A stretch of DNA of 63,665 nt from Chloroflexota bacterium (GCA_030744875.1 JASLPR010000036.1:1-63665), one strand, 5' to 3'. Shown: positions 35,051-63,525, numbered from the stretch's first letter. The notes: generated by a model from the letters alone, not told the origin. Made by a program: numbers and translations.

Positions 35051-36094
35051 TCAGCGGACCAGGATGGCCGGGCGGTCGATGCCGCGATCGGTGGCGAGCG
35101 CCGGCCAGTCGCCGGTGTCCGTCAGCACTTCCGGCCCGGCGGCAGTGGCCAGGATGGTGTCTTCGCTCTTGACGCCGGCGATGGAAGGGTTCCAGGCGAA
35201 GCACTGGCCGGCGAGGACCGGGTACGGGTGCCCACCGCCGACGAAGTACTCGCGCGACCCGTAGCCGGCCGCCCCACCCTGGTGGTGCAATTTCCATTCG
35301 TCCGGGTGGCCGCGGGCGGCGTACTCGGCCTGGCCGGCGGCGAAGACATCGACGGCGGTCCGGCCGACGGTGGTGGCGGCGATGTAGGCGGCGTCGACTT
35401 CGGCGCAGGCCTGCGCCTTGGCGACCAACTCGGCCGGTAGTTCGCCGAAGTGCACCAGCCGGGTCATGGAACACCACAATCCGTGCCGCACCGAGGAGGT
35501 GACCAGCATGGCGTAGCGTTCCAGTTTCTTTTCGGTCGGCAGCGGATGGCGATGGTCGAAGACCCGCCGGTCGGTGGCCACCAGGGTGACCGGCGACAGC
35601 ACGCCGCGATCGCCGAGCGCGGCGCGGACGTCGGCGGCGATGCGTTCTTCGGTCTGGCCGGGCTCCAGCGAGCGGGCGACCTGTTCCAGTGCGGCGGCGG
35701 TGTCGGCGGCCAGGGCGCGCATGCGGAGGACTTCTTCGGGCACGAGGGCGGCGCGGAGGTCGGCCAGGCCGTCGGCGGGTACCGCGCCGTCAATCGCGAT
35801 GTCGGCGGCCAACACACTTTCGCCGGCCGCTTCGCGGATCCACGCGGGGCCGTTGAAGAACATGTCCGTCCAGTCGATGACCCGGTACTCGACCGGCAGC
35901 CCGGCCAGTTCGTCCTGCTCGAGGCGCGGCATCTCGACGTTGCTGGTGAGGACTTCGACCCGCTCGGCGCTGTAGAGCAGCGTGGCAACGCCGCCGGTGT
36001 CGAAGGTGTTGATGTAGGACCGGCCGCCGGCTGTTGCCCACGCGAACGTGGCGATCGTGCCGATGGCCAGCCGGTCCCAGCCCCGCTCCACCAT
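35051..36094 (-). CDS. M24 family peptidase (creatinase/prolidase-like)
   Basis: Creatinase_N-like N-terminus and a pita-bread C-terminal half (HRHPLP..., HHQGGAAGY..., AWNPSIAGVKSEDTIL). Family-like sequence (RRAEFAAKTARIRSL) continues in frame upstream of the first ATG with no canonical start codon. Confidence 0.8.
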   Translation of the reverse strand: MVERGWDRLAIGTIATFAWATAGGRSYINTFDTGGVATLLYSAERVEVLTSNVEMPRLEQDELAGLPVEYRVIDWTDMFFNGPAWIREAAGESVLAADIAIDGAVPADGLADLRAALVPEEVLRMRALAADTAAALEQVARSLEPGQTEERIAADVRAALGDRGVLSPVTLVATDRRVFDHRHPLPTEKKLERYAMLVTSSVRHGLWCSMTRLVHFGELPAELVAKAQACAEVDAAYIAATTVGRTAVDVFAAGQAEYAARGHPDEWKLHHQGGAAGYGSREYFVGGGHPYPVLAGQCFAWNPSIAGVKSEDTILATAAGPEVLTDTGDWPALATDRGIDRPAILVR

Positions 36095-45063: not shown

Positions 45064-45881
45064 CCGGCCACTGCCCGGCGCTCGTGAGCGAGCGCCAGCC
45101 CGAGCAGCGTGAGGTCGGGGGCGACCTCGTCGATCAGATTGATGTCGTCGATTACCTGGTCGGCCAGCCCGCCGGTGGCGATGACCCGTGGCCGCTGGCG
45201 CAACTCGGCGAAAAGGTTCTCCAGCAGGCCGCGGACCTGGTGCACGTAGCCCCAGTAGATGCCGGTCTGCATGCACTCGACGGTGTTCTTGCCGACGATT
45301 CGTTCGGGCCGCGCGAACCGCACCCGGGGTAGCTGCGAGGTGCCCCGAAACAGCGCCTCGGTGACCATCGCCACGCCGGGGGCGATTACGCCGCCGGTGT
45401 AGTTGCCGTCTTCGTCGACGACATCGAAGGTTGTGGCCGAGCCCAGGTCGACCACGATCGCCGGCCCACCGAAAAGTTCGGCGACGGCGGCGCAATTGAG
45501 GACTCGATCGACGCCGACTTCGGCGGGAAAATCCACGTGCAAGGCGACGCCGGGGATCGTGGTGGCCGTGACCGCGAGCGGGGTGACGCCGGTGCTCGCG
45601 GCGACGGCTTCGCTGACGGTCGCCGTCAGCGGCGGGACGACCGATCCAATGATGGCGGCGGCGAGATCGCCGCGCTCGATCCCGGCTCGATCCAGAGCGG
45701 CTCCGAGCAGCAGCGCGTACTCGTCGGCGGTGCGGCCGCGCTCGGTGGCGAAACGCCAGGAATGGTAGATGGCCCGCGACCGCAACACCCCGATGCTGAT
45801 GTTGGAATTGCCCACGTCAATGGCCAGCAATCGGCCGCCGCCGTCGCCGCCATCGGGGTTGTGGGGGGAACCTGCGCTCAA
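45060..45881 (-). CDS. coaX: type III pantothenate kinase
   Basis: LLAIDVGNSNISIGV and VVDLGSATTFDVV motifs. No ATG is available, so TTG 45881 is proposed as the start. Confidence 0.88.
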   Translation of the reverse strand: MSAGSPHNPDGGDGGGRLLAIDVGNSNISIGVLRSRAIYHSWRFATERGRTADEYALLLGAALDRAGIERGDLAAAIIGSVVPPLTATVSEAVAASTGVTPLAVTATTIPGVALHVDFPAEVGVDRVLNCAAVAELFGGPAIVVDLGSATTFDVVDEDGNYTGGVIAPGVAMVTEALFRGTSQLPRVRFARPERIVGKNTVECMQTGIYWGYVHQVRGLLENLFAELRQRPRVIATGGLADQVIDDINLIDEVAPDLTLLGLALAHERRAVAG

Positions 45882-45945
45882 GGGCCTGCCGTCCGATCCG
45901 GTTGGAATTGCCTGTCGCTTTCGATCCAGCCTAATCTTGACGACT

Positions 45946-46767
45946 TTGAAAGTGCCAGAATTCCATCTTGGCGGGCTCGCCCCGCTGGAACTAGAAACCC
46001 TGACTCTGCCGGAACTGCGGGCGGTCTTGCCCGACGTGGAACTGGCCGTGGTGACCCTGGGCTCGATCGAGCAGCACGGGCCGAACACCGCCCTGGAAAC
46101 CGATCTGGCGATGGCCCACGAGATGGCGCGGATGGCCTCGGCGCGGCTGTACCCGAAGCTGCTGGTGGTGCCGCCGATCCCCTGGGGAATGTCGGACTAC
46201 CACATGGATTTTCCGGGCACGCTGAGCCTGCGACCGGAGACGGTGCTCGATGTTCTGCGCGACATCTTTGGCTCACTGCGCCAACACGGCATCGAGAACT
46301 GGCTCATCACCAATTTCCACTCGGGCAACGAGGGGATCGTTAGCGTGGCGGTACAGGGGTTGGGGGCGGAGTTGAAGCCGAACTTCCTGGGCTCGGTCTC
46401 GCTGGCGCAACTGGAACCGGACAACATCGAGGCGCAGGTGCGTCGCTCGCGGGTGGTGGGGCACGGCTGCGAGGTCGAAACCGCCGAGTTGATGTACGTG
46501 CGCCCTGACCTGGTGCAGATCGAGGACGTGGCAGCCGGCGGACTGCGCACCGAGCACATCGACCGGCGCCGCAAGTTCTTTGGCAGCGGGGTGCGGGTAA
46601 CCTGGTCGTTTGCCGAGGGCACCAGCAACGGCGCGCTGGGCGACTCCCGCCACGCCAGCTACGAGGGCGGCAAGAACCTGGTCGAGGGGATGATGGATGA
46701 GTTCATGGACATCCTCGACGAGATCATGAGTAACTGGCTGGACCGGAGCGAAGGGGCGAATTCCTGA
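45946..46767 (+). CDS. creatininase (creatinine amidohydrolase/ArfB/MftE) family protein, paralog 1
   Basis: LGSIEQHGPNTALETD metal-binding motif. TTG 45946 or GTG 45952 start; the ORF-track start at 45769 overlaps coaX. Confidence 0.85.
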   Translation: MKVPEFHLGGLAPLELETLTLPELRAVLPDVELAVVTLGSIEQHGPNTALETDLAMAHEMARMASARLYPKLLVVPPIPWGMSDYHMDFPGTLSLRPETVLDVLRDIFGSLRQHGIENWLITNFHSGNEGIVSVAVQGLGAELKPNFLGSVSLAQLEPDNIEAQVRRSRVVGHGCEVETAELMYVRPDLVQIEDVAAGGLRTEHIDRRRKFFGSGVRVTWSFAEGTSNGALGDSRHASYEGGKNLVEGMMDEFMDILDEIMSNWLDRSEGANS

Positions 46768-47564
46768 TGGCAAACGAAAACGGCGGCGGTCCCGAGCTGC
46801 TACTCTCCGAGTTGACCACCGTCGAAGTGGAGCGGCTGGGGGATCAGATCGAACTGGTGTTGCTGCCGTTCGGCGCCACCGAGCAGCACGGCCCGCACCT
46901 GGCGATGGGGACAGACTCGTTTATCGCCGATGCCTTCTGCCGCGAGGTGTCGCGGCGGCACTATCCGCGGGTGCTGGTGGCACCGCCGCTGCGCTGGGGG
47001 CTGTCCGGGCTGCACATGGACTTCCCGGGCACGATCACACTTTCGGCGGACACCGTAATGCGCATCTTCGAGGACGTGATCGACTCGCTGGTGTCGCACG
47101 GGTTCGGTCGCTTCCTGATCGTCAACACCCATGGCGGCAATCGCGAAGTGGCGAAACTGGCGGCCACCCAGATCGGCGCTCGCGATGGCGTGGACTTCAT
47201 GGGAGCCGTTGACATGGGCAGCCTCATCGAACCGGATGTCCGGGCGCGGCAGCAGGCGGCAGGGACAGGGCGGGGCGGTCACGCCTGCGAGGATGAGACC
47301 GCGACCGCCATGTATCTGTGCCCCGAGATCGTGCGCGAGGACAAGATCGCGAAGGCCGAATTCGACGAAGGCGCGTTCGACTTCCGGGTGGCGATGGAGA
47401 CGCACGGCATCCGCGTCCCGACCAACATGCACGATCTCACCGAAGGCGGCGCGCTGGGCGACCCGACCCTGGCCACCGCCGAATGGGGCGAGGAACGGGT
47501 GGAGTCGGCCTATGCGCGGCTGGGCGACCTGATCGACACGATCACCGGCGGGGCGGGCGGCTAG
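46767..47564 (+). CDS. creatininase family protein, paralog 2
   Basis: LPFGATEQHGPHLAMGTD and HACEDETA motifs. The ATG overlaps the stop of paralog 1 (TGATG). Confidence 0.88.
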   Translation: MANENGGGPELLLSELTTVEVERLGDQIELVLLPFGATEQHGPHLAMGTDSFIADAFCREVSRRHYPRVLVAPPLRWGLSGLHMDFPGTITLSADTVMRIFEDVIDSLVSHGFGRFLIVNTHGGNREVAKLAATQIGARDGVDFMGAVDMGSLIEPDVRARQQAAGTGRGGHACEDETATAMYLCPEIVREDKIAKAEFDEGAFDFRVAMETHGIRVPTNMHDLTEGGALGDPTLATAEWGEERVESAYARLGDLIDTITGGAGG

Positions 47565-51476: not shown

Positions 51477-52413
51477 TCATGCGTCTTCCTCGGTGACCAA
51501 GCCGAGGAAGGCGTCCTCGAGGGTGGCGGTCTGGCGGGAGGCCTCTTCCACGCTGCCGCCGGCGCTGACGATCAGTCCGACGAGCGGGGAGACCTCACCG
51601 TCCTCGTGGAGTTCGATAGTGAGCCGGCCGTCGGCGGCGGTGACAGCGGCGACTTCGGGCCGGGCGCGCAGTTGGGCCAGAGTCCCGTCGGTGAATCCGC
51701 GGCCGACGATCTCGAGGCGCGGCGCGCCCTGCTGATCGCGCAAATCCCGGGGGCTGCCGAGCGCGATCAGACGCCCGGAGCGGATGATGCCCACTTGCGA
51801 GCAGAGCTTCTCGGCTTCGACCAGGTTGTGGGTGGTGAGAAAAATGGTGACGCCTTCGCTGGCGCCCAGGACTGCCAGGTCTTCGCGCAGGGCGGCGGCG
51901 GCGATCGGGTCGAGCCCGGCAGTCGGTTCGTCGAGGAAGACCATGGGCGGGCGGGCGAGGAGAGCCCGGGCGATGGCCAGTTTCTGCTTCATGCCGCGGC
52001 TGAGGCTGTGGGCGAGCTGCCCGCGTTCGTCCCAGAGGTTGAAATGGCGCAGCAAATCCTCGGTGCGAGCCGCTCTTTCGCGTTCGCCCAGTCCCCAGAC
52101 GCGGCCGTGGAACTCGAGGTTGTCGGTGACGGTGAGGCGGTCGTAGATGCCGTGCTGCTCGAGCAGCGAGCCGCAGCCGCCGCGGACCTGGTCGCGCCTG
52201 GGTGGCGATGTCGAAGCCGAGCACCCGGGCCGATACCGCCTTGGGCTCCAGAAGCCCAAAGAGCAGGCGGATGGTGGTTGTCTTGCCGGCGCCGTTGGGG
52301 CCGAAGAAGCCGAAAATGGTACCGGCGGGCACTTCGAGGGAGAGATCGTCGACGGCTCGATTACTGCCGAAGTCGCGCGTCAATCCGGTGGTGCTGATGG
52401 CAACGTCGGTCAT
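51477..52413 (-). pseudogene. ABC transporter ATP-binding protein, frameshifted near 52194-52200
   Basis: Walker [11 protein letters not shown] is in one frame (to ...VLGFDIATQ). The Q-loop, signature LSRGMKQK, Walker [13 protein letters not shown] and the H-loop TTHN are in another frame. Confidence 0.8.
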
Positions 52414-52568
52414 ACCGCGAGCGTCTCCTACCCTCATCGCCGCCCGGCAGGCGGGGTGTCCTCTCCAAGAACGCCGCCTTCGTAGCAGCCGGTCACACGC
52501 ATATAGGCACGGCGCGGTGCAATGCCGGTGATGTCCGGTGGAGCTAGATGCTGGCTACAGACCCGGGA

Positions 52569-57643: not shown

Positions 57644-58585
57644 TCAGGGCTCCCAGAGCTCCAGTGAGTACCAGGTGGTCCAGTCCGGGGGGCCGTGCAC
57701 CTCGATGGCGTAGGTCCCGTCGGCGGGGAGGGTAAAGGTGAGATCGCCGGTGGCGGATTCGGCTACGAGGGCGCCATCGGGCCCGATAAGGCGCAGGATC
57801 AACTCGTCAACGCTGAGGTAGATGCGCAGCCCCTCGCCGGCCTGCCCGGCGTAGGTCCAGCGCTCGATGGTGCGCGGTCCGACCGATCCGGACTCGGCCA
57901 CGCCCAGGGTCACCGCGCCGCGCTCGCGATAGCCGACGTCGTCCTGACAGAAGCGCCAGAGGCGGACGTTGTCGACGTTGTTGAGCATGTCCTCCCAGTA
58001 GGTATTGCCGTCGAGATCGGTGAAGAAGGAGCGGTCGCCGTAGAGGGCCATCCACTCGATGAACCGGGCCTCGATGGCGTAGGCCCCGCCCTCGGCCACG
58101 TTGAGATCAAACGCGCCGTCGGGGCAGTTGTGGCGGCGGTGCTCCGGGTGGACTTGGCGGGCCTCGTGGACCAGGGCGCGGACGTAGTTTTCCATCGCCG
58201 CGCAGGCCGACGTCGGCGCCGATCCAAAGATTGGTCGGCAGCGGTAGGACCAGGGGTTGATCCACATGTAGCGGGCCGGGTCGCAGCAATAGCCGGCGCC
58301 GCCGAAGTCGGATTTGAAGATGATGCCGTCGATGGAGGAGATGAACCAGTCGTAGAGGGACAGGTCGGTCCAGGGCAGCGCCCGCGAAAAGCTGATGCGC
58401 CGCAGCAGCAGGACCGCCTGGTAGGTGCGCTCCTGGATGAAGGTGAGGTCGGCGGTGTCGGTGCCAGTGTTGGTGTAGAGGCAGCCGTCGTCCAGGGCGG
58501 TGAAGGGGCAGTCGTCGGCGGCAGCCACAGGCATGGCCGCGAGGAGACCGGCCAGCAGCAGGACCAGCAGTAGCGTTCTGCGCAT
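57644..58585 (-). CDS. secreted Cys/His-rich protein of unknown function with C-terminal PPC-like beta domain
   Basis: Signal peptide MRRTLLLVLLLAGLLAAMPVAAA. Nine Cys. His cluster LVHEARQVHPEHRRHNC. The ATG overlaps the stop of the upstream gene (ATGA at 58583-58587). Confidence 0.6.
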   Translation of the reverse strand: MRRTLLLVLLLAGLLAAMPVAAADDCPFTALDDGCLYTNTGTDTADLTFIQERTYQAVLLLRRISFSRALPWTDLSLYDWFISSIDGIIFKSDFGGAGYCCDPARYMWINPWSYRCRPIFGSAPTSACAAMENYVRALVHEARQVHPEHRRHNCPDGAFDLNVAEGGAYAIEARFIEWMALYGDRSFFTDLDGNTYWEDMLNNVDNVRLWRFCQDDVGYRERGAVTLGVAESGSVGPRTIERWTYAGQAGEGLRIYLSVDELILRLIGPDGALVAESATGDLTFTLPADGTYAIEVHGPPDWTTWYSLELWEP

Positions 58586-61173
58586 CAGGCCGATCCCTTC
58601 CAATCAACTGCCGCGACCGCGACACCGGTCACCAGCAGCAGACCCAGTCCGATCAGGCTGAACACGATCCCGGCCTCATAGCCCGGCGGCGAATAGCTGA
58701 ACTCCACCTGGCTCGCTCCGGCCGGAACCGGCACGGCGAGCACGAGGCGGTTGGCGGTTAGCAGATCGACCGGCCGGCCATCCACACTCGCCGCCCAGCC
58801 GGGCAGGGCACTCTGGTTGAGCACCAGCACCCCGGACCCGCCAGCATCCACCGCGAAACTCCAGTCGCCCGGCTCTGCGCGTAAGACACGTACCACCGCC
58901 GCCAGCGCCGGGGCGGGCGGGATGCCCGGGTCGCCATCCAGCAGCACGATGCGCGGATCGGCGGCGAGGCGGTCTAGGGTGGCCTCCGTCGACTCGGCCG
59001 GGTCGTCGGCCTGCCAGTTGGCGGTCACGTAATAGTCGCCGCGCACGAATGGCAGCCCGTAGACAAAGACCAGTGGGCCCTCCCAATCGAACGGGATCGC
59101 CGCCCGGTGCGAAAAGGTGGCGAGACCCAAGAAATTGACCAGGTCGGTCCCGGCGATGAGGGTCGAAACGCCGAACGCGCCGAGCACCGGCAGGCGTTGG
59201 CGCAGCAACTCCGCCTTGGCCTCCTCGGAAAGTGAATCGTCGCCGGCGAACCCGGCGACGGTGGTCCGCTCGCTGCCCAGGTAGGCCAGCGCCTCGGCCT
59301 GCGTCTGGCTCATCAGGTTCTCGTAGCCGTCCAGGGAACGCAGACCGTAGCGCCCGGCCAGGTTCGGGGTCAGGAGCTCGCGGGCGAAGCGGTACTCGAG
59401 ACGGCGGCGCTCGACCGGGGACAGCTCGCGGCCGGAGCCCAGGCCCAGCTCGGATTTATCGGCCAGCGAGCGGTACGAAAAGACGCGGCCTTCGCGGAGT
59501 TCGCCGACCGCCGACACCGTTACCGGCGTGGAATCGGAGACATCGGGGCCGAGAGTCGGGATGCCGTGGCCGGGAGAAAGCGAGATGTCGATTAGCAGCA
59601 CGGCGGCCAACGCGACAAGCGCCGTCGGGGCCGCCAGCCGGCCGTCGCCCAGTCTCCGCAAGAGTAGAGCCCCCATCGCCGCGGTCAGAACTCCCAGCAG
59701 CGGGGGCCAACCGGACAGCGTAAAGGCGGTCTCCAGTCGCCCGCGCGCCAACGCGAAGGCCCCCAGCCAGCCGGACTCGTTGAAGAAGGCGTTTCGTCCA
59801 CCAACGAATAGGCGGTCGATCGCGCGGTCACCGAACTCGGCGATGGCGCCGCCACCCTTCAAGAGCACTGTCCCGGCAATGAGCGCCACCATCAGCAACA
59901 CCGCGTACCCACCGATCAATCGTCCGGCCTGACGCGCGAACCGGCGGTGGGCGTCGGTGGCACGGGCCAGTTCTTCCAGTCCGAACGCGGTCAGCAAAGC
60001 CAGCGCCAGGATGCCCGGCAGCAGGTAGCGACCGGGTTCGCGAAACAGGTCAAAGACCGGCAGTTTACGCAGCAGGGGGTAAACCGGTGTCGCCTGGCCG
60101 AATGCTAGTAGCCAGCTCAGCCCCAGCAGTACCAGCAGGAAGGCGACCCGGCGCTCGCGCCAGCGCCAAGTTGCGGCGGCAATCGCCAGCACCAACGCCA
60201 GCAGACCGGCGTAGGCCAGCGGCTCGGCGCGCAGCGTCCCGCCCGCCACCCGCGGCAGGTCGAACGCCGGATACACGTAGCCGAGCAGGAGACTCAGCGG
60301 ATTGAGTTCCCCACCGGATGCGGTGGCGGGGTCCATCCCGCCGGCGCGGGTCGAGACCCCGGTAAGCACGATGGTGGGCAGCAGGCGTACGGCTCCGAGC
60401 ATCAACCCCAGCGCGCCGGCGCCCAGCAGCAGGGCAATCAGGCGTCCGGCTGCAACCCAGCCATCATCGCGATACGTCCAGACGAGGCGGAACACCGCGA
60501 ACAGCACCGCCGCGAAGGCCACGACCACGGCCACATGGGGATGCCCGGCCAGGATGACCACCGCCGCCGCGACCGCCAGCACCGGCACGTAGCGATAGCG
60601 CCGCCGAGCCATCCGTTCGATGGCAAGCAGGGACACCGGTAGCACCCAGAATATAGCGGTGAAATTGATGAACACCGACGTGGCAAAGACGAAGGGCGCG
60701 AATCCGTACAGGTACCCACCCACGAAGGCAGCCAGGCGGCCGAAGCCCCACGAGCGCCCGAGCCAGTAGGTCCCCAGCGCCGCCAGCAGCAGCCCGCTGG
60801 CGGTCTCGGAGTGGTACGCCAGTGGCATCGGCAGAAGCCCAAGAAACAGCCACGAAAGCGGGTAGAACCAGCCGAACTCGGAGAACGCAACCGGGAACCC
60901 GCCTAGATAGGTATCGGTCCATATCGGGATTTCGTTGTTAGCGATGCCTTGGTGCAGAATCTCAAAGCGGACCCGGCTGTCGACCAGGAAATCGAGGTCC
61001 AGCCAAGTGCGGCCTTCGAGCAGGAGGCGGCGATAGAGGATCAGCAAAGGTAGCAGGTATCCGACCGCCACGCGCACGCTGGGCGGCAGGCGCAGGAATC
61101 GATCCGCCGCAGCAGCCGCCCATGCCGCAGCCCGCCCCAGCTTCGCCCCCGATCCTGCCGACTGGTCGTTCAT
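58585..61173 (-). CDS. large polytopic membrane protein, YfhO/GT-C-like (putative glycosyltransferase fold)
   Basis: 862 aa. More than 12 N-terminal TM helices, a roughly 300-aa extracytoplasmic domain and one terminal TM helix, which is the architecture typical of YfhO-family proteins. The functional call is tentative. Confidence 0.75.
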   Translation of the reverse strand: MNDQSAGSGAKLGRAAAWAAAAADRFLRLPPSVRVAVGYLLPLLILYRRLLLEGRTWLDLDFLVDSRVRFEILHQGIANNEIPIWTDTYLGGFPVAFSEFGWFYPLSWLFLGLLPMPLAYHSETASGLLLAALGTYWLGRSWGFGRLAAFVGGYLYGFAPFVFATSVFINFTAIFWVLPVSLLAIERMARRRYRYVPVLAVAAAVVILAGHPHVAVVVAFAAVLFAVFRLVWTYRDDGWVAAGRLIALLLGAGALGLMLGAVRLLPTIVLTGVSTRAGGMDPATASGGELNPLSLLLGYVYPAFDLPRVAGGTLRAEPLAYAGLLALVLAIAAATWRWRERRVAFLLVLLGLSWLLAFGQATPVYPLLRKLPVFDLFREPGRYLLPGILALALLTAFGLEELARATDAHRRFARQAGRLIGGYAVLLMVALIAGTVLLKGGGAIAEFGDRAIDRLFVGGRNAFFNESGWLGAFALARGRLETAFTLSGWPPLLGVLTAAMGALLLRRLGDGRLAAPTALVALAAVLLIDISLSPGHGIPTLGPDVSDSTPVTVSAVGELREGRVFSYRSLADKSELGLGSGRELSPVERRRLEYRFARELLTPNLAGRYGLRSLDGYENLMSQTQAEALAYLGSERTTVAGFAGDDSLSEEAKAELLRQRLPVLGAFGVSTLIAGTDLVNFLGLATFSHRAAIPFDWEGPLVFVYGLPFVRGDYYVTANWQADDPAESTEATLDRLAADPRIVLLDGDPGIPPAPALAAVVRVLRAEPGDWSFAVDAGGSGVLVLNQSALPGWAASVDGRPVDLLTANRLVLAVPVPAGASQVEFSYSPPGYEAGIVFSLIGLGLLLVTGVAVAAVDWKGSA

Positions 61174-61291
61174 GGCACAATCCTACCCAGCCGGACTCCA
61201 TCCGGACGACGTTAGGAAACGCGAGATCATTGGCGTTAGGTGATATTGGCGACAGGCATAGCCGGTCACATTGTCTAAATTCAGATTGAGT

Positions 61292-62533
61292 ATGTGGGCG
61301 GCTCGGCAAACCGCGGGAACGTTTGAGGCGAGGTCGGGGCGACGACGAAAACAGGCGACAGTACTGATCGTCGGGGCTGTGCTCGCCGTTGGGCTGGCAA
61401 CAACCTGCCAGTCGAGCACCACGCCGGCCGTACCCACCTCTCCGCTACCCCCGACCGCAGTGACGGTGCTCGTAGAGACGAAGAGCACCGCCGCGCGAGT
61501 GGGCCCGACCGCGACCCGGGCCCCTATCCACCGGATCACCACTCCGGGACCGGAGAGCCCTACCGCAGCGGACACCTTCGACCCGGCCGGACTGACGATT
61601 GGGACCCGGAACCGGTTCATCTCGCTTGACGAACCGGTCATGATCCCGGCCACCGACGCCACCTGGCTGCGGGATGACGAGATCGTGATGGGCCTAGTGG
61701 CCCACAACGGCGAAACCCGTGCGTTCCCTGTCCGCCAGATGGCCTACCACCACATCGCCAACCTCTCCGTCGCCGGGGTCCCCTATCTCGTCACCTACTG
61801 AGTAGTTTGCTCCTCCGGGGTTGAGTTCAACCCCTCCTGGGAAGGGACCGCGTACACCTTCGACGTCGCCGGCCTCTACAACGGGTTGTTCGTTATGGCC
61901 GACCGCCAGACCGGCTCCATCTGGACCCACTACGGGGGCTCCGTGCTGCAGGGTCCGCTGGCCGGCCAGGGCATCCAGCTTGAGATGTTGCCGACGTATC
62001 ACACCACCTGGAGCCAGTGGCGCGACGCCTACCCGGACACGCTGGTGCTGGACTGGTACCCCGAGTTCGCGAACCGCTACCGACCGGTCGGCTTTGAGGT
62101 TGGGGGTGCCGGCCTCGGCCCAGATTTCCGGCTGACCATCCTGAACTGGGACGATCGCCTGCCTGAGAGCGAACTGGTGCTCGGGGTCAATCACCATGGC
62201 GAGCAACGCGCCTACGTGCTGGCCGACATGGACCCCGGGCCGCAGGTGATCGCCAACCGGCTTTCGGGAGACCCGATCGTGATCTTCGCCGACCCGGACG
62301 ACACCTACGCGCTGGCCTTCGTGGCGGTGCTGGACGGCGCGGCCCTGGAGTTCCGCGTCGCGGACGGCGTAATCACCGATCAGTACGGCGTCGCGTGGGA
62401 CCTCAGCGGCCACGCGCTGGGCGGGGACTACGCGGGCCGGCAGCTGCCGTTCGCCACGTCGTTCGTATCGGAGTGGTACGGCTGGTCGGCGTATTTCCCG
62501 GAGACGTCGATCTACAGGCGCCTGGCGGGCTAA
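61292..62533 (+). CDS. DUF3179-family lipoprotein with an in-frame TGA at 61799-61801; candidate selenoprotein (UxxC), or alternatively a nonsense-disrupted gene
   Basis: ORFs 61271-61801 and 61886-62533 are in the same frame, with no other stop between them. The junction reads PYLVTY-TGA-VVCSSGVEF...TFDVAGLYNGLFVMADRQTGSIW, matching the family TYCPLCGSG...TFGVSG...VMYDRET.S.W block. Signal/lipobox-like VLIVGAVLAVGLATTC. Confidence 0.7.
61817..61834 (+). other. candidate bacterial SECIS-like hairpin (GGGGTTG-AGTT-CAACCCC)
   Basis: Perfect 7-bp GC-rich stem starting 15 nt after the TGA. The 4-nt loop AGUU begins 22 nt after the TGA. A possible lower stem forms between UCCUCC (61811-61816) and GGGAAGGG (61839-61846). 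Confidence 0.4.
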
Positions 62534-63525
62534 ATCTCGGCCAAGAACTCGGCGACGACGCGGGTCAGGTCGTCGGGGCGCTCTTCCTGGATGACGTGGC
62601 CGCAGGGGTCAAAGACCTCGAAGCGCACGTCGGCCAGTCCGCCGAGCAGGCGCTGCGTTCCGGCCAGGTCACCAGCGCGGTCCTCGGACGCCCAGACGAC
62701 CAGGGTCGGGATCTTGTTCATCTGCACGATGCCGTTCAGCCCGGCCGGCGAGAGGTGCCGGCCGACGGCGGCGATTGATTCCCAGATGCCGGGGGTGCCG
62801 TAGGGCAGGTATTGCTCGTCGACGATCTCGGGCGTGATTCCGGAGGGGTCGCTGCGGCCGGTATGGTTGGCGAGCACGATCATCGGCCTGAACCCCAGCA
62901 GCAGTTTCAGCACCGGCCGCGCGAAGGGCAGCCGCAGCAGCCGCAGCCCGAAGGCGGTGTGCCGGCGGGGAGCAACGAAGGGAGCCACCATAATGCCGGC
63001 CGAAAAGCGGCGCGGAGTCCGGAACTGGGCGTAGAGCGCGGGGGCGGCGCTGGCCGAGTTGCACATCAGGATGCAGCTCTTGAGGCCCAGCGCGTCCAAG
63101 ACCTGTTCGATCTGGCGCGCCTGGCCGATCCGCGAGTGATCGATGCCGGCGGGCTTGTCGGAAAGCCCATAGCCGAGGAAGTCGCAGCGGTGCAGGCGGT
63201 AGCGATTTTGCAGGCGCTCGGCCACCGCCCGCCAGGTGCGCGAGGTGCCCGCGAAGCCGGGCAACGCCAGGATGTCGGGGCCCTGCCCGAAGCTGTCTAC
63301 ATGAACCCGCCCGTCGGCAATCGGGACCAGCCGGCCGGAGCCGAGGTGGTCTTCGGGATCGACCGGCAGCGGCCGGATGCCCCAGCGGTGGAGCGGGTTG
63401 GGGCTGCGGGCGCGAAGGGCGGCGAGGGACTCTTCGTTCACTGGTGGGGGCGTGCCTTTGCTCGGGTGAATATCGCGGGGGAGAGCCCGTTCCTGTGTGT
63501 GATAGTATCCCAAACCGCCCGACAA
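62530..63525 (-). CDS. alpha/beta hydrolase fold protein
   Basis: GPDILALPGFAGTSRTWRAV (oxyanion-loop region), nucleophile-elbow variant LMCNSASA, and C-terminal DPCGHVIQEERPDD carrying the catalytic His. Confidence 0.8.
   Translation of the reverse strand: MSGGLGYYHTQERALPRDIHPSKGTPPPVNEESLAALRARSPNPLHRWGIRPLPVDPEDHLGSGRLVPIADGRVHVDSFGQGPDILALPGFAGTSRTWRAVAERLQNRYRLHRCDFLGYGLSDKPAGIDHSRIGQARQIEQVLDALGLKSCILMCNSASAAPALYAQFRTPRRFSAGIMVAPFVAPRRHTAFGLRLLRLPFARPVLKLLLGFRPMIVLANHTGRSDPSGITPEIVDEQYLPYGTPGIWESIAAVGRHLSPAGLNGIVQMNKIPTLVVWASEDRAGDLAGTQRLLGGLADVRFEVFDPCGHVIQEERPDDLTRVVAEFLAEI

What the first reader, a model, noticed from the sequence alone, without database searches (positions are those of the whole stretch)
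61292..62533. DUF3179 lipoprotein with TGA replacing the first Cys of its CxxC motif plus a downstream hairpin: candidate new selenoprotein family member
Directly visible in the sequence:
- Two ORFs (61271-61801 and 61886-62533) share one frame and are separated by a single TGA at 61799-61801.
- The stretch 61802-61885 has no stop.
- The concatenated protein is a full-length DUF3179-type sequence running from a lipoprotein-like signal to the C-terminal WYGWSAYFPETSIY block.

The TGA sits in ...VPYLVTY-[TGA]-VVCSSGVEF.... From my memory of the family, homologs read TYCPLC(G/N)S at this point. The stop therefore aligns with the first Cys of a CxxC pair and gives a UxxC motif, the classic redox-selenoprotein signature. 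A Cys/Sec pair across homologs is the standard hallmark of selenoprotein genes.

Fifteen nt after the TGA there is a perfect 7-bp stem, GGGGTTG/CAACCCC, with an AGUU loop at 61817-61834. The loop starts 22 nt from the UGA and has G at its second position. This falls in the spacing range I recall for bacterial SECIS elements. A perfect GC-rich stem inside coding sequence at exactly this position is unlikely by chance.

I am not aware of DUF3179 being a described selenoprotein family.

Caveat: other genes in this window carry real nonsense lesions, though those are TAG. A simple TGC/TGT to TGA pseudogene cannot be excluded from this window alone.
Basis: partly seen in the sequence, partly recalled or inferred. 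Interest (0 to 1): 0.85.

Follow-up and report, generated by a model that had tools for sequence, protein, structure and literature searches.

The report
Known DUF3179 selenoprotein gene, correctly spotted
The in-frame TGA is a genuine selenocysteine codon with a conserved recoding hairpin behind it, in a membrane-tethered DUF3179 protein of a Chloroflexota bacterium; DUF3179 is already listed as a selenoprotein family, and the public record of this genome already reads through the codon.

Summary
One TGA (61799-61801) interrupts a full-length DUF3179 reading frame (61292-62533). It aligns with the first Cys of the family's CxxC motif. A perfect 7-bp hairpin (61817-61834) starts 15 nt after it.

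The selenocysteine reading is strongly supported:
- Of 84 related loci, 46 have TGA at this codon and 38 have TGC or TGT.
- The TGA loci keep the hairpin, with compensatory changes and fixed synonymous sites. None of the 40 distinct Cys-form sequences, which include the two closest Cys forms fetched separately, keeps all seven pairs.
- The same TGA is present, with no mismatch across the gene, in two independent JGI metagenome assemblies.

The novelty claim fails:
- DUF3179 (PF11376, UxxC/T) is tabulated as a prokaryotic selenoprotein family in two reviews (2022 and 2026), which credit Zhang and Gladyshev 2007.
- NCBI uses the name "DUF3179 domain-containing (seleno)protein".
- The gene table of this window's own NCBI record (GCA_030746705.1) lists one 413-residue product across the TGA.

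The "lipoprotein" label is doubtful, because the lipobox is not canonical. A signal or membrane anchor is more likely.

No Sec machinery lies in the window, and the rest of the genome could not be searched. The protein's biochemical function remains unknown. A weak structural resemblance to Rieske/NirD-type domains is only a lead.

Verdict: real and correctly interpreted, but already known.

The parts
61292..62533 (+). Complete selenoprotein coding sequence: 413 residues including Sec, plus the TAA stop. It is a DUF3179-family protein.
   Evidence: The frame is continuous apart from the TGA. Pfam PF11376 matches at E = 1.9e-55. The gene table of the NCBI record lists one 413-residue product at exactly these coordinates, whereas JGI assemblies call fragments of 169 and 212 aa.
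61355..61405 (+). N-terminal hydrophobic segment (ATVLIVGAVLAVGLATT) after an RRRK stretch. It is a signal peptide or membrane anchor and is followed by a Pro/Thr/Ser-rich linker.
   Evidence: Translation. The AlphaFold model of the Cys homologue P0020 has an N-terminal helix at residues 6-35, then a low-confidence linker. The lipobox is not canonical (LATTC). Location outside the cytoplasm is an inference.
61622..62506 (+). DUF3179 domain (PF11376, profile positions 6-292 of 292).
61799..61801 (+). UGA selenocysteine codon. It is the first position of the U-V-V-C motif.
   Evidence: The column holds TGA in 46 of 84 related loci and TGC or TGT in 38. It aligns with the first Cys of CxxC. The codon is identical in three assemblies.
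61808..61810 (+). TGC codon for the second residue of the UxxC motif (the resolving or partner Cys).
   Evidence: This Cys is invariant in the 25-sequence alignment. A few distant homologues have Thr here (L061, L072 and L076), which matches the published UxxC/T motif.
61817..61834 (+). Bacterial SECIS-type hairpin. The stem is 61817-61823 paired with 61828-61834, and the loop AGUU is 61824-61827. It lies within the codons for G-V-E-F-N-P.
   Evidence: 98.3% of cells are paired over 42 TGA loci, 3 of 7 pairs show compensatory changes, and 0 of 500 shuffles reach the covariation score. RNAalifold predicts the same stem on its own. Mean hairpin energy is -10.9 kcal/mol in Sec forms against +0.75 in Cys forms. 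Synonymous sites are fixed.

Best explanation
The feature at 61292-62533 is one gene for a DUF3179-family selenoprotein of a Chloroflexota bacterium.

How the recoding most likely works (inferred from the established bacterial pathway): the UGA at 61799-61801 is decoded as selenocysteine, not read as a stop. The 7-bp, 4-nt-loop hairpin that starts 15 nt downstream acts as the bacterial SECIS element. [quoted passage not shown]

How the hairpin is kept (shown): it lies inside the codons for Gly-Val-Gly/Glu-Phe-Asn/Asp-Pro. It is maintained by fixed synonymous positions and by coupling of the Val third base to the Asn/Asp first base.

The product (inferred): a 413-residue protein with an N-terminal signal or membrane anchor, a Pro/Thr-rich linker and a beta-rich DUF3179 domain that is probably outside the cytoplasm. 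Sec177 and Cys180 (numbered from the TTG at 61271) form a U-x-x-C centre. I consider it most likely a redox-active selenol/thiol pair in which Sec is the attacking residue. A metal-ligand role is the alternative. The substrate is unknown.
For: 1. Frame and family. The DUF3179 match spans the TGA, and the TGA aligns with the first Cys of CxxC.
2. Sec/Cys pair at scale. TGA is at this codon in 46 of 84 related loci and TGC or TGT in the other 38. The loci come from Anaerolineales, Dehalococcoidia, Tepidiformaceae and other lineages.
3. Fragmented database entries. About 60 of the 93 database homologues are fragments of 231-259 aa that begin MVCSSG, VVCSSG or MCSSG. These are gene calls that start right after the same stop. 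In the four loci inspected (two of these fragment proteins), an N-terminal DUF3179 fragment abuts directly upstream.
4. The hairpin is tied to TGA.
 - All seven pairs are kept in 37 of 43 distinct Sec forms and in none of 40 Cys forms.
 - Compensatory changes are U-A to C-G (13 against 28 sequences), G-C to A-U (3 sequences) and G-C to A-U at the closing pair (1 sequence).
 - The U-A/C-G pair changed state at least 5 times on a neighbour-joining tree.
 - The two closest Cys forms, L085 and L086, encode almost the same peptide but break the stem.
5. Synonymous constraint. The Gly codon in the stem is GGG in 42 of 43 sequences against 22% elsewhere in the same genes. The Pro codon is CCC or CCT in 42 of 43 against 41% elsewhere.
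6. Not an assembly error. The gene is identical, TGA included, in GCA_030746705.1 and in two JGI metagenomes.
7. Prior knowledge. DUF3179 is tabulated as a selenoprotein family with motif UxxC/T. Selenoproteins are reported in Chloroflexi.
8. Redox rather than a strict two-Cys metal site. The first position is always U or C in 84 of 84 loci, while the second is Thr in some.
Against: - No selA, selB, selD or tRNA-Sec gene lies in the 63.7-kb window or in about 7.5 kb beyond its right-hand end. None of the neighbourhoods of the 45 TGA-type relative loci scanned holds a tRNA-Sec gene. The rest of the genome could not be searched.
- No Rfam family matches the hairpin.
- The 62-nt region does not fold better than shuffled sequence.
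- This window does contain one damaged gene, a frameshifted ABC ATPase, so lesions do occur in this assembly.
- Part of the stem is imposed by the conserved peptide itself.
- There is no experimental evidence of Se incorporation for any DUF3179 protein that I could find.
- The redox function is inference only.
Confidence: 0.93

Rival explanations
1. It is a pseudogene. A TGC or TGT to TGA nonsense mutation has inactivated a normal Cys-type DUF3179 gene, and the hairpin is a by-product of the encoded peptide.
For: The window holds at least one damaged gene, a frameshifted ABC ATPase. Part of the stem, the fixed first and second codon positions of Gly, Val, Asn/Asp and Pro, follows from the conserved peptide. 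The Cys form L085 retains 6 of 7 pairs.
Against: The same TGA is present in 46 loci from several classes, with open and conserved sequence on both sides. The downstream half shows strong codon-position GC bias. Free synonymous sites are fixed to keep pairing only in TGA forms. Compensatory changes occur.
Confidence: 0.02
2. It is a sequencing or assembly error. The true codon is TGC or TGT.
For: The source is a metagenome-assembled genome. One relative, L057, has a likely homopolymer error in this very region.
Against: The gene has no mismatch, TGA included, in three assemblies from different samples. Dozens of independent MAGs have TGA at this position.
Confidence: 0.01
3. The UGA is recoded, but not to selenocysteine. 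It could be read through as Cys or Trp by a near-cognate or suppressor tRNA, or it could act as a regulated stop that yields a truncated N-terminal product, with the hairpin serving as a general read-through stimulator.
For: The Sec machinery was not found in the sequence available. No biochemical data exist for this family.
Against: The stop always replaces a Cys, which is the classic Sec/Cys pair. The position and loop of the hairpin fit bacterial SECIS elements: the loop starts 22 nt after the UGA, and G is in the first two loop positions (the criteria are recalled from Zhang and Gladyshev 2005, and conserved loop guanosines are noted in PMC1976440). TGA ends other genes in the window normally, for example the M24 peptidase at 35051. 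Specialists list the family as a selenoprotein family.
Confidence: 0.04

Closest known systems
DUF3179 domain-containing selenoprotein family (PF11376, motif UxxC/T). It is tabulated in PMC9312934 (2022) and PMC13188914 (2026), which attribute it to Zhang and Gladyshev, NAR 2007 (PMC1976440). NCBI's name is 'DUF3179 domain-containing (seleno)protein'.
   Same: Same Pfam domain over its full length. Sec is at the first position of the U-x-x-C motif, there are Cys-containing homologues, and a hairpin lies directly downstream of the UGA.
   Different: Nothing essential differs. This copy comes from a Chloroflexota MAG and has a long Pro/Thr-rich linker. I could not confirm which of the 2007 paper's named families corresponds to DUF3179 (OS_HP1 is my guess). 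I also could not compare the published representative sequences with this one.
Bacterial SECIS element of E. coli fdhF, and the bSECISearch consensus.
   Same: It is a stem-loop inside the coding sequence directly 3' of the UGA. A G-U dinucleotide is present in the apical loop (GNUU in most relatives, AGUU here). The distance from the UGA to the loop lies within the known range (range recalled from memory).
   Different: It is shorter and simpler: 7 bp, a 4-nt loop, and no bulged U. The loop lies about 3 nt further from the UGA than in fdhF (from memory). SelB binding is untested. No Rfam model covers it.
Rieske-type ferredoxins and the NirD small subunit (Rieske fold).
   Same: The AlphaFold model of a Cys homologue gives its best meaningful PDB matches to these domains of about 100 residues. 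Foldseek probability is 0.9-0.99 and the target-normalised TM-score is 0.5-0.57. A conserved His lies about 13-17 residues before the U/CxxC, which loosely echoes the two ligand loops of the Rieske domain.
   Different: The E-values of about 0.05 are not significant. There is no sequence match to any solved structure. The ligand pattern CxH...CxxH is not present. It is unclear which lobe of DUF3179 matched. This is a resemblance of fold only, not membership.
Thioredoxin-fold UxxC and CxxU selenoproteins (DsbA-like, thiol:disulfide interchange and similar).
   Same: The redox-type U-x-x-C motif is shared, the second position can be Cys or Thr, and the location is probably outside the cytoplasm.
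   Different: The predicted fold is beta-rich and not thioredoxin-like, and no Pfam thioredoxin domain is found.

Membership tests
DUF3179 (PF11376) protein family | A significant full-length match to the Pfam profile. | tested here: met
   E = 1.9e-55 and 188.8 bits against a cut-off of 27, over profile positions 6-292 of 292.
DUF3179 selenoprotein subfamily (UxxC/T) | An in-frame TGA aligned with the conserved first Cys of the CxxC/T motif. | tested here: met
   Alignment A1. The codon census over 84 loci gives 46 TGA, 29 TGC and 9 TGT.
DUF3179 selenoprotein subfamily (UxxC/T) | Several independent TGA-containing orthologues as well as Cys homologues. | tested here: met
Bacterial selenoprotein gene (SelB-dependent recoding) | A stem-loop immediately downstream of the UGA, with the apical loop in the accepted distance range and G among the first two loop bases. 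| tested here: met
   The stem starts 15 nt and the loop 22 nt after the UGA, and the loop is AGUU. The numerical criteria are recalled from the bSECISearch paper and were not re-read here.
Bacterial selenoprotein gene (SelB-dependent recoding) | The structure is conserved with covariation and is specific to the TGA forms. | tested here: met
Bacterial selenoprotein gene (SelB-dependent recoding) | The genome encodes selA, selB, selD and tRNA-Sec. | not testable with these tools
   None of these is in the window, in about 7.5 kb beyond its right-hand end, or (for tRNA-Sec) in the neighbourhoods of relatives. Only 63.7 kb of the genome, plus that flank, was accessible.
Bacterial selenoprotein gene (SelB-dependent recoding) | Selenium is incorporated into the full-length product. 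| not testable with these tools
   This needs an experiment (75Se labelling or mass spectrometry).
Bacterial lipoprotein | A lipobox [LVI][ASTVI][GAS]C at the end of the signal peptide. | tested here: not met
   The sequence is G-L-A-T-T-C, with Thr at position -1. The consensus is recalled from memory. No dedicated predictor was available.
Rieske-fold iron-sulfur domain | CxH...CxxH ligand motifs and a significant structural or sequence match. | tested here: not met
   The motifs are absent. Foldseek E-values are about 0.05. No PDB sequence hit is significant; the only one listed has E = 0.12.

The most novel reading that the evidence does not exclude
The DUF3179 domain may be a diverged Rieske/NirD-like beta fold displayed outside the cell. 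In this reading the ancestral ligand loops have become a conserved His plus a U/C-x-x-C/T loop. The selenocysteine would then be the reactive centre of an uncharacterised extracytoplasmic redox or metal-handling enzyme that is widespread in Chloroflexota. A smaller but demonstrated curiosity is that the Asn/Asp choice ten residues after Sec is coupled to the synonymous third base of a Val codon through SECIS base-pairing, so the RNA structure shapes the protein sequence.
Probability: 0.15. Interest if true: 0.5.

Novelty: already known. Interest (0 to 1): 0.2.

Why it matters
The finding is a sound positive control for the scan. A tool-less reader recovered a true selenoprotein gene from raw sequence.

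It adds little that is new. The family is in the published selenoprotein catalogues, and this gene is already annotated as a read-through product in GenBank.

Two points are useful in practice:
- About 60 protein clusters in public databases are truncated C-terminal fragments of DUF3179 selenoproteins that begin MVCSSG, VVCSSG or MCSSG. The JGI and older NCBI gene calls split the gene in two. The family's Sec forms are therefore under-annotated in Chloroflexota.
- The compact hairpin, kept in every intact TGA form examined and showing covariation, is a clean SECIS example that could be used to build a covariance model.

The biochemical role of DUF3179 is still open.

Tried and rejected
- NCBIfam scan of the joined protein: no hit.
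- Rfam, at gathering thresholds on the whole window and at E up to 10 on 61750-61900: only a tRNA-Leu and one chance hit. No SECIS model matched.
- ARAGORN on the window and 47 loci: no tRNA-Sec.
- Search for selA, selB and selD by annotating the window, using gene tables of the source contig and three Pfam batches: only housekeeping genes, including ClpC, RadA, IspD, CysRS, the ATP synthase operon, MreB, RelA/SpoT, RecJ, CoaBC, creatininases, ABC transporters and YfhO.
- One gene look-up failed because the start codon differed.
I modelled the Cys homologue P0020 instead.
- PDB sequence search with the family profile: nothing significant.
The three I checked (26912, 23260 and 11420) are boundaries between neighbouring genes that share a frame. 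I found a frameshift instead. I did not check every site.
- Conserved gene neighbourhood: the neighbours differ between loci, so no operon-based clue to function emerged.

Full report
**1. The observation**

- A TGA at 61799-61801 is the only stop between the ORF 61271-61801 and the frame that runs to the TAA at 62531-62533.
- The most likely start is the ATG at 61292, which gives a product of 413 residues.
- With Cys placed at the TGA, the protein matches Pfam DUF3179 (PF11376) at E = 1.9e-55 over nearly the whole profile. The match spans the stop.
- The local context is VPYLVTY-TGA-VVCSSGVEF.
- In an alignment with 24 homologues, the stop falls on the first Cys of a CxxC motif, for example TYCVVCSS, TFCSVCNT and TYCPLCNT. 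The second Cys is invariant there.
- The hairpin GGGGTTG/AGTT/CAACCCC lies at 61817-61834. It starts 15 nt after the TGA, and its loop starts 22 nt after it.

From this one sequence the hairpin is only moderately surprising.
- Perfect 7-bp hairpins occur about once per 1.1 kb in this GC-rich window. That gives p of about 0.016 for one in the right place.
- The 62-nt stretch as a whole does not fold better than shuffled sequence (z = -0.28).

**2. Comparative evidence**

A search of the large protein collection returned 93 homologues.
- About 60 of the closest (43-63% identity) are fragments of 231-259 residues that cover only the C-terminal 57% of the query. They begin MVCSSG, VVCSSG or MCSSG. 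These are gene calls that start on the codon or two after the same stop.
- More distant full-length homologues read TYCVVCSS or TYCVVCN.
- In the four contigs fetched for two such fragments, an N-terminal DUF3179 fragment ends exactly where the C-terminal fragment starts.

A scan of one genome per species returned 80 loci. I read the codon aligned with the window's TGA in those loci plus the four contigs above.
- Counting the window itself, the codon is TGA in 46, TGC in 29 and TGT in 9. One further locus gave no alignment.
- The TGA forms come from Anaerolineales, Dehalococcoidia, Tepidiformaceae and other Chloroflexota. A few are MAGs labelled Acidobacteria, Acidimicrobiia, Microthrix and Planctomycetota.
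- The nearest relative, L005, is an uncultured Chloroflexota MAG at 69% identity. It also has TGA.

**3. The hairpin is a conserved RNA structure tied to TGA**

- In 42 distinct TGA loci, the seven pairs are formed in 98.3% of cells.
- Three pairs show changes on both sides: U-A to C-G (13 against 28 sequences), G-C to A-U (3 sequences), and G-C to A-U at the closing pair (1 sequence).
- No shuffle out of 500 reaches the observed covariation score. Sliding the partner by one to three columns removes the signal.
- RNAalifold predicts exactly this stem without being told.
- On a neighbour-joining tree of the proteins, the U-A/C-G pair changes state at least five times.

The stem is encoded by the codons for Gly-Val-Gly/Glu-Phe-Asn/Asp-Pro, and its free positions are fixed.
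- The Gly codon is GGG in 42 of 43 sequences, against 22% of Gly codons elsewhere in the same genes.
- The Pro codon ends in C or U in 42 of 43, against 41% elsewhere.
- The synonymous third base of Val (U or C) tracks the first base of Asn or Asp (A or G).

The contrast with Cys forms is sharp.
- Thirty-seven of 43 Sec forms keep all seven pairs, with a mean energy of -10.9 kcal/mol.
- None of 40 Cys forms keeps all seven, and their mean energy is +0.75 kcal/mol.
- The two closest Cys forms, L085 (CVVCSSGVAFNP) and L086 (CVVCSSAVGFDP), encode almost the same peptide yet break the stem.

Cys-carrying relatives do not keep the hairpin.

**4. Source and reproducibility**

- The window is part of contig JASLMB010000005.1 (104.5 kb) of NCBI assembly GCA_030746705.1. 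It is reversed relative to the contig and covers about 20578-84242.
- The gene, TGA included, is identical in two JGI metagenome assemblies, 3300035250 and 3300035205. An assembly error is therefore very unlikely.
- The gene table of the NCBI record lists one 413-residue product at exactly 61292-62533. That length is possible only by reading through the TGA. The JGI assemblies call fragments of 169 and 212 residues.

**5. What is known**

- Full-text search found DUF3179 in the selenoprotein tables of two reviews. The entry reads 'DUF3179 domain-containing protein, pfam11376, UxxC/T' in PMC9312934 (2022) and PMC13188914 (2026).
- Both reviews credit Zhang and Gladyshev 2007 (PMC1976440).
- That paper describes six new families with Sec/Cys pairs and SECIS-like hairpins that have conserved loop guanosines. 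I could not confirm which of its names corresponds to DUF3179.
- NCBI names a Cys homologue (P0071) 'DUF3179 domain-containing (seleno)protein'.
- Selenoproteins have been reported in Chloroflexi.

The family-level novelty claim therefore fails.

**6. Sec machinery**

- There is no tRNA-Sec in the window.
- There is no selA, selB or selD among its genes. These are ordinary chromosomal housekeeping genes.
- The neighbourhoods of the 45 relatives with TGA that were scanned hold no tRNA-Sec either.
- The rest of the genome was out of reach, so this test remains open.

**7. Mechanism and function**

Shown: the Sec/Cys pair, the conserved hairpin specific to TGA forms, and the intact frame.

Inferred from the established bacterial pathway: SelB carrying Sec-tRNA(Sec) binds the hairpin and decodes the UGA.

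The protein.
- It has an RRRK stretch, a hydrophobic segment and a Pro/Thr-rich linker before the domain.
- An AlphaFold model of the Cys homologue P0020 has mean pLDDT 86. It shows an N-terminal helix, a disordered linker and a two-lobed beta-rich domain.
- I therefore infer a membrane-tethered or secreted protein. The lipobox is not canonical (LATTC), so 'lipoprotein' is not supported.

The reactive centre.
- The first position of the motif is U or C in all 84 loci. The second is Thr in a few.
- This pattern is typical of redox motifs in which the first residue is the nucleophile. I therefore favour a selenol/thiol redox centre over a strict metal site.

Structural lead.
- Fold search gives no significant match. 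The best meaningful ones are Rieske ferredoxins and NirD, at E about 0.05, probability 0.9-0.99 and TM-score 0.5-0.57 on the target.
- This is a lead only. The Rieske ligand motifs are absent.

**8. Verdict**

The thing itself is already known, both as a family and as this annotated gene, so interest is low.

Noticed in passing
window 51477-52440, minus strand: An ABC-transporter ATPase gene appears frameshifted. The N-terminal part with the Walker A motif ([10 protein letters not shown]) is in one frame. The rest (ABC_tran profile positions 52-137 plus the DrrA1-3_C domain) continues in another frame as a 260-aa ORF. A JGI assembly (L089) has the same 260-aa call. This is either a real pseudogene or a shared error.
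   Followed up: partly
L057:4283-4342 (Dehalococcoidia MAG CBDFLS010000002.1): This TGA-type DUF3179 gene lacks one G in the GGGG run of the SECIS stem, which shifts the frame (SSGSGST...). It is probably a homopolymer error in a long-read assembly, sitting exactly in the hairpin.
   Followed up: no
proteins P0001-P0066 and others; loci L001-L004: About 60 clusters in the public protein collection are truncated C-terminal halves of DUF3179 selenoproteins that begin MVCSSG, VVCSSG or MCSSG. The gene is called as two ORFs in the JGI, ENA, Logan and some NCBI records. This is a systematic misannotation.
   Followed up: yes
L013, L015 (MAGs labelled Acidobacteria), L016 (Acidimicrobiia), L017 and L018 (Microthrix), L046 (Planctomycetota): TGA-type genes with the same SECIS hairpin occur in MAGs assigned outside Chloroflexota, and they nest among Chloroflexota sequences in the tree. 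This points to horizontal transfer or mis-binning.
   Followed up: no
window 61817-61834 and alignment A2, columns 30 and 37: The amino acid ten residues after Sec (Asn or Asp) is coupled to the synonymous third base of a Val codon through base-pairing in the SECIS stem: GTT with AAC, and GTC with GAC. The RNA structure therefore constrains the protein sequence.
   Followed up: yes
window 45769-46767 and 46767-47564, plus strand: Two adjacent creatininase-family (PF02633) genes lie in tandem. The stop of the first overlaps the start of the second.
   Followed up: no
window 58585-61173 (minus strand) and 62530-63525 (minus strand): The selenoprotein gene is flanked by a divergent 862-aa YfhO-family membrane protein and a convergent alpha/beta hydrolase. 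Neighbours differ in other loci (mevalonate diphosphate decarboxylase, MaoC dehydratase), so there is no conserved operon.
   Followed up: partly
model me739adb1fdd7 (P0020, a Cys homologue): The best meaningful PDB fold matches of the DUF3179 model are Rieske ferredoxins and the NirD small subunit (probability 0.9-0.99, target TM-score 0.5-0.57, E about 0.05). A conserved His lies about 13-17 residues before the U/CxxC loop.
   Followed up: partly
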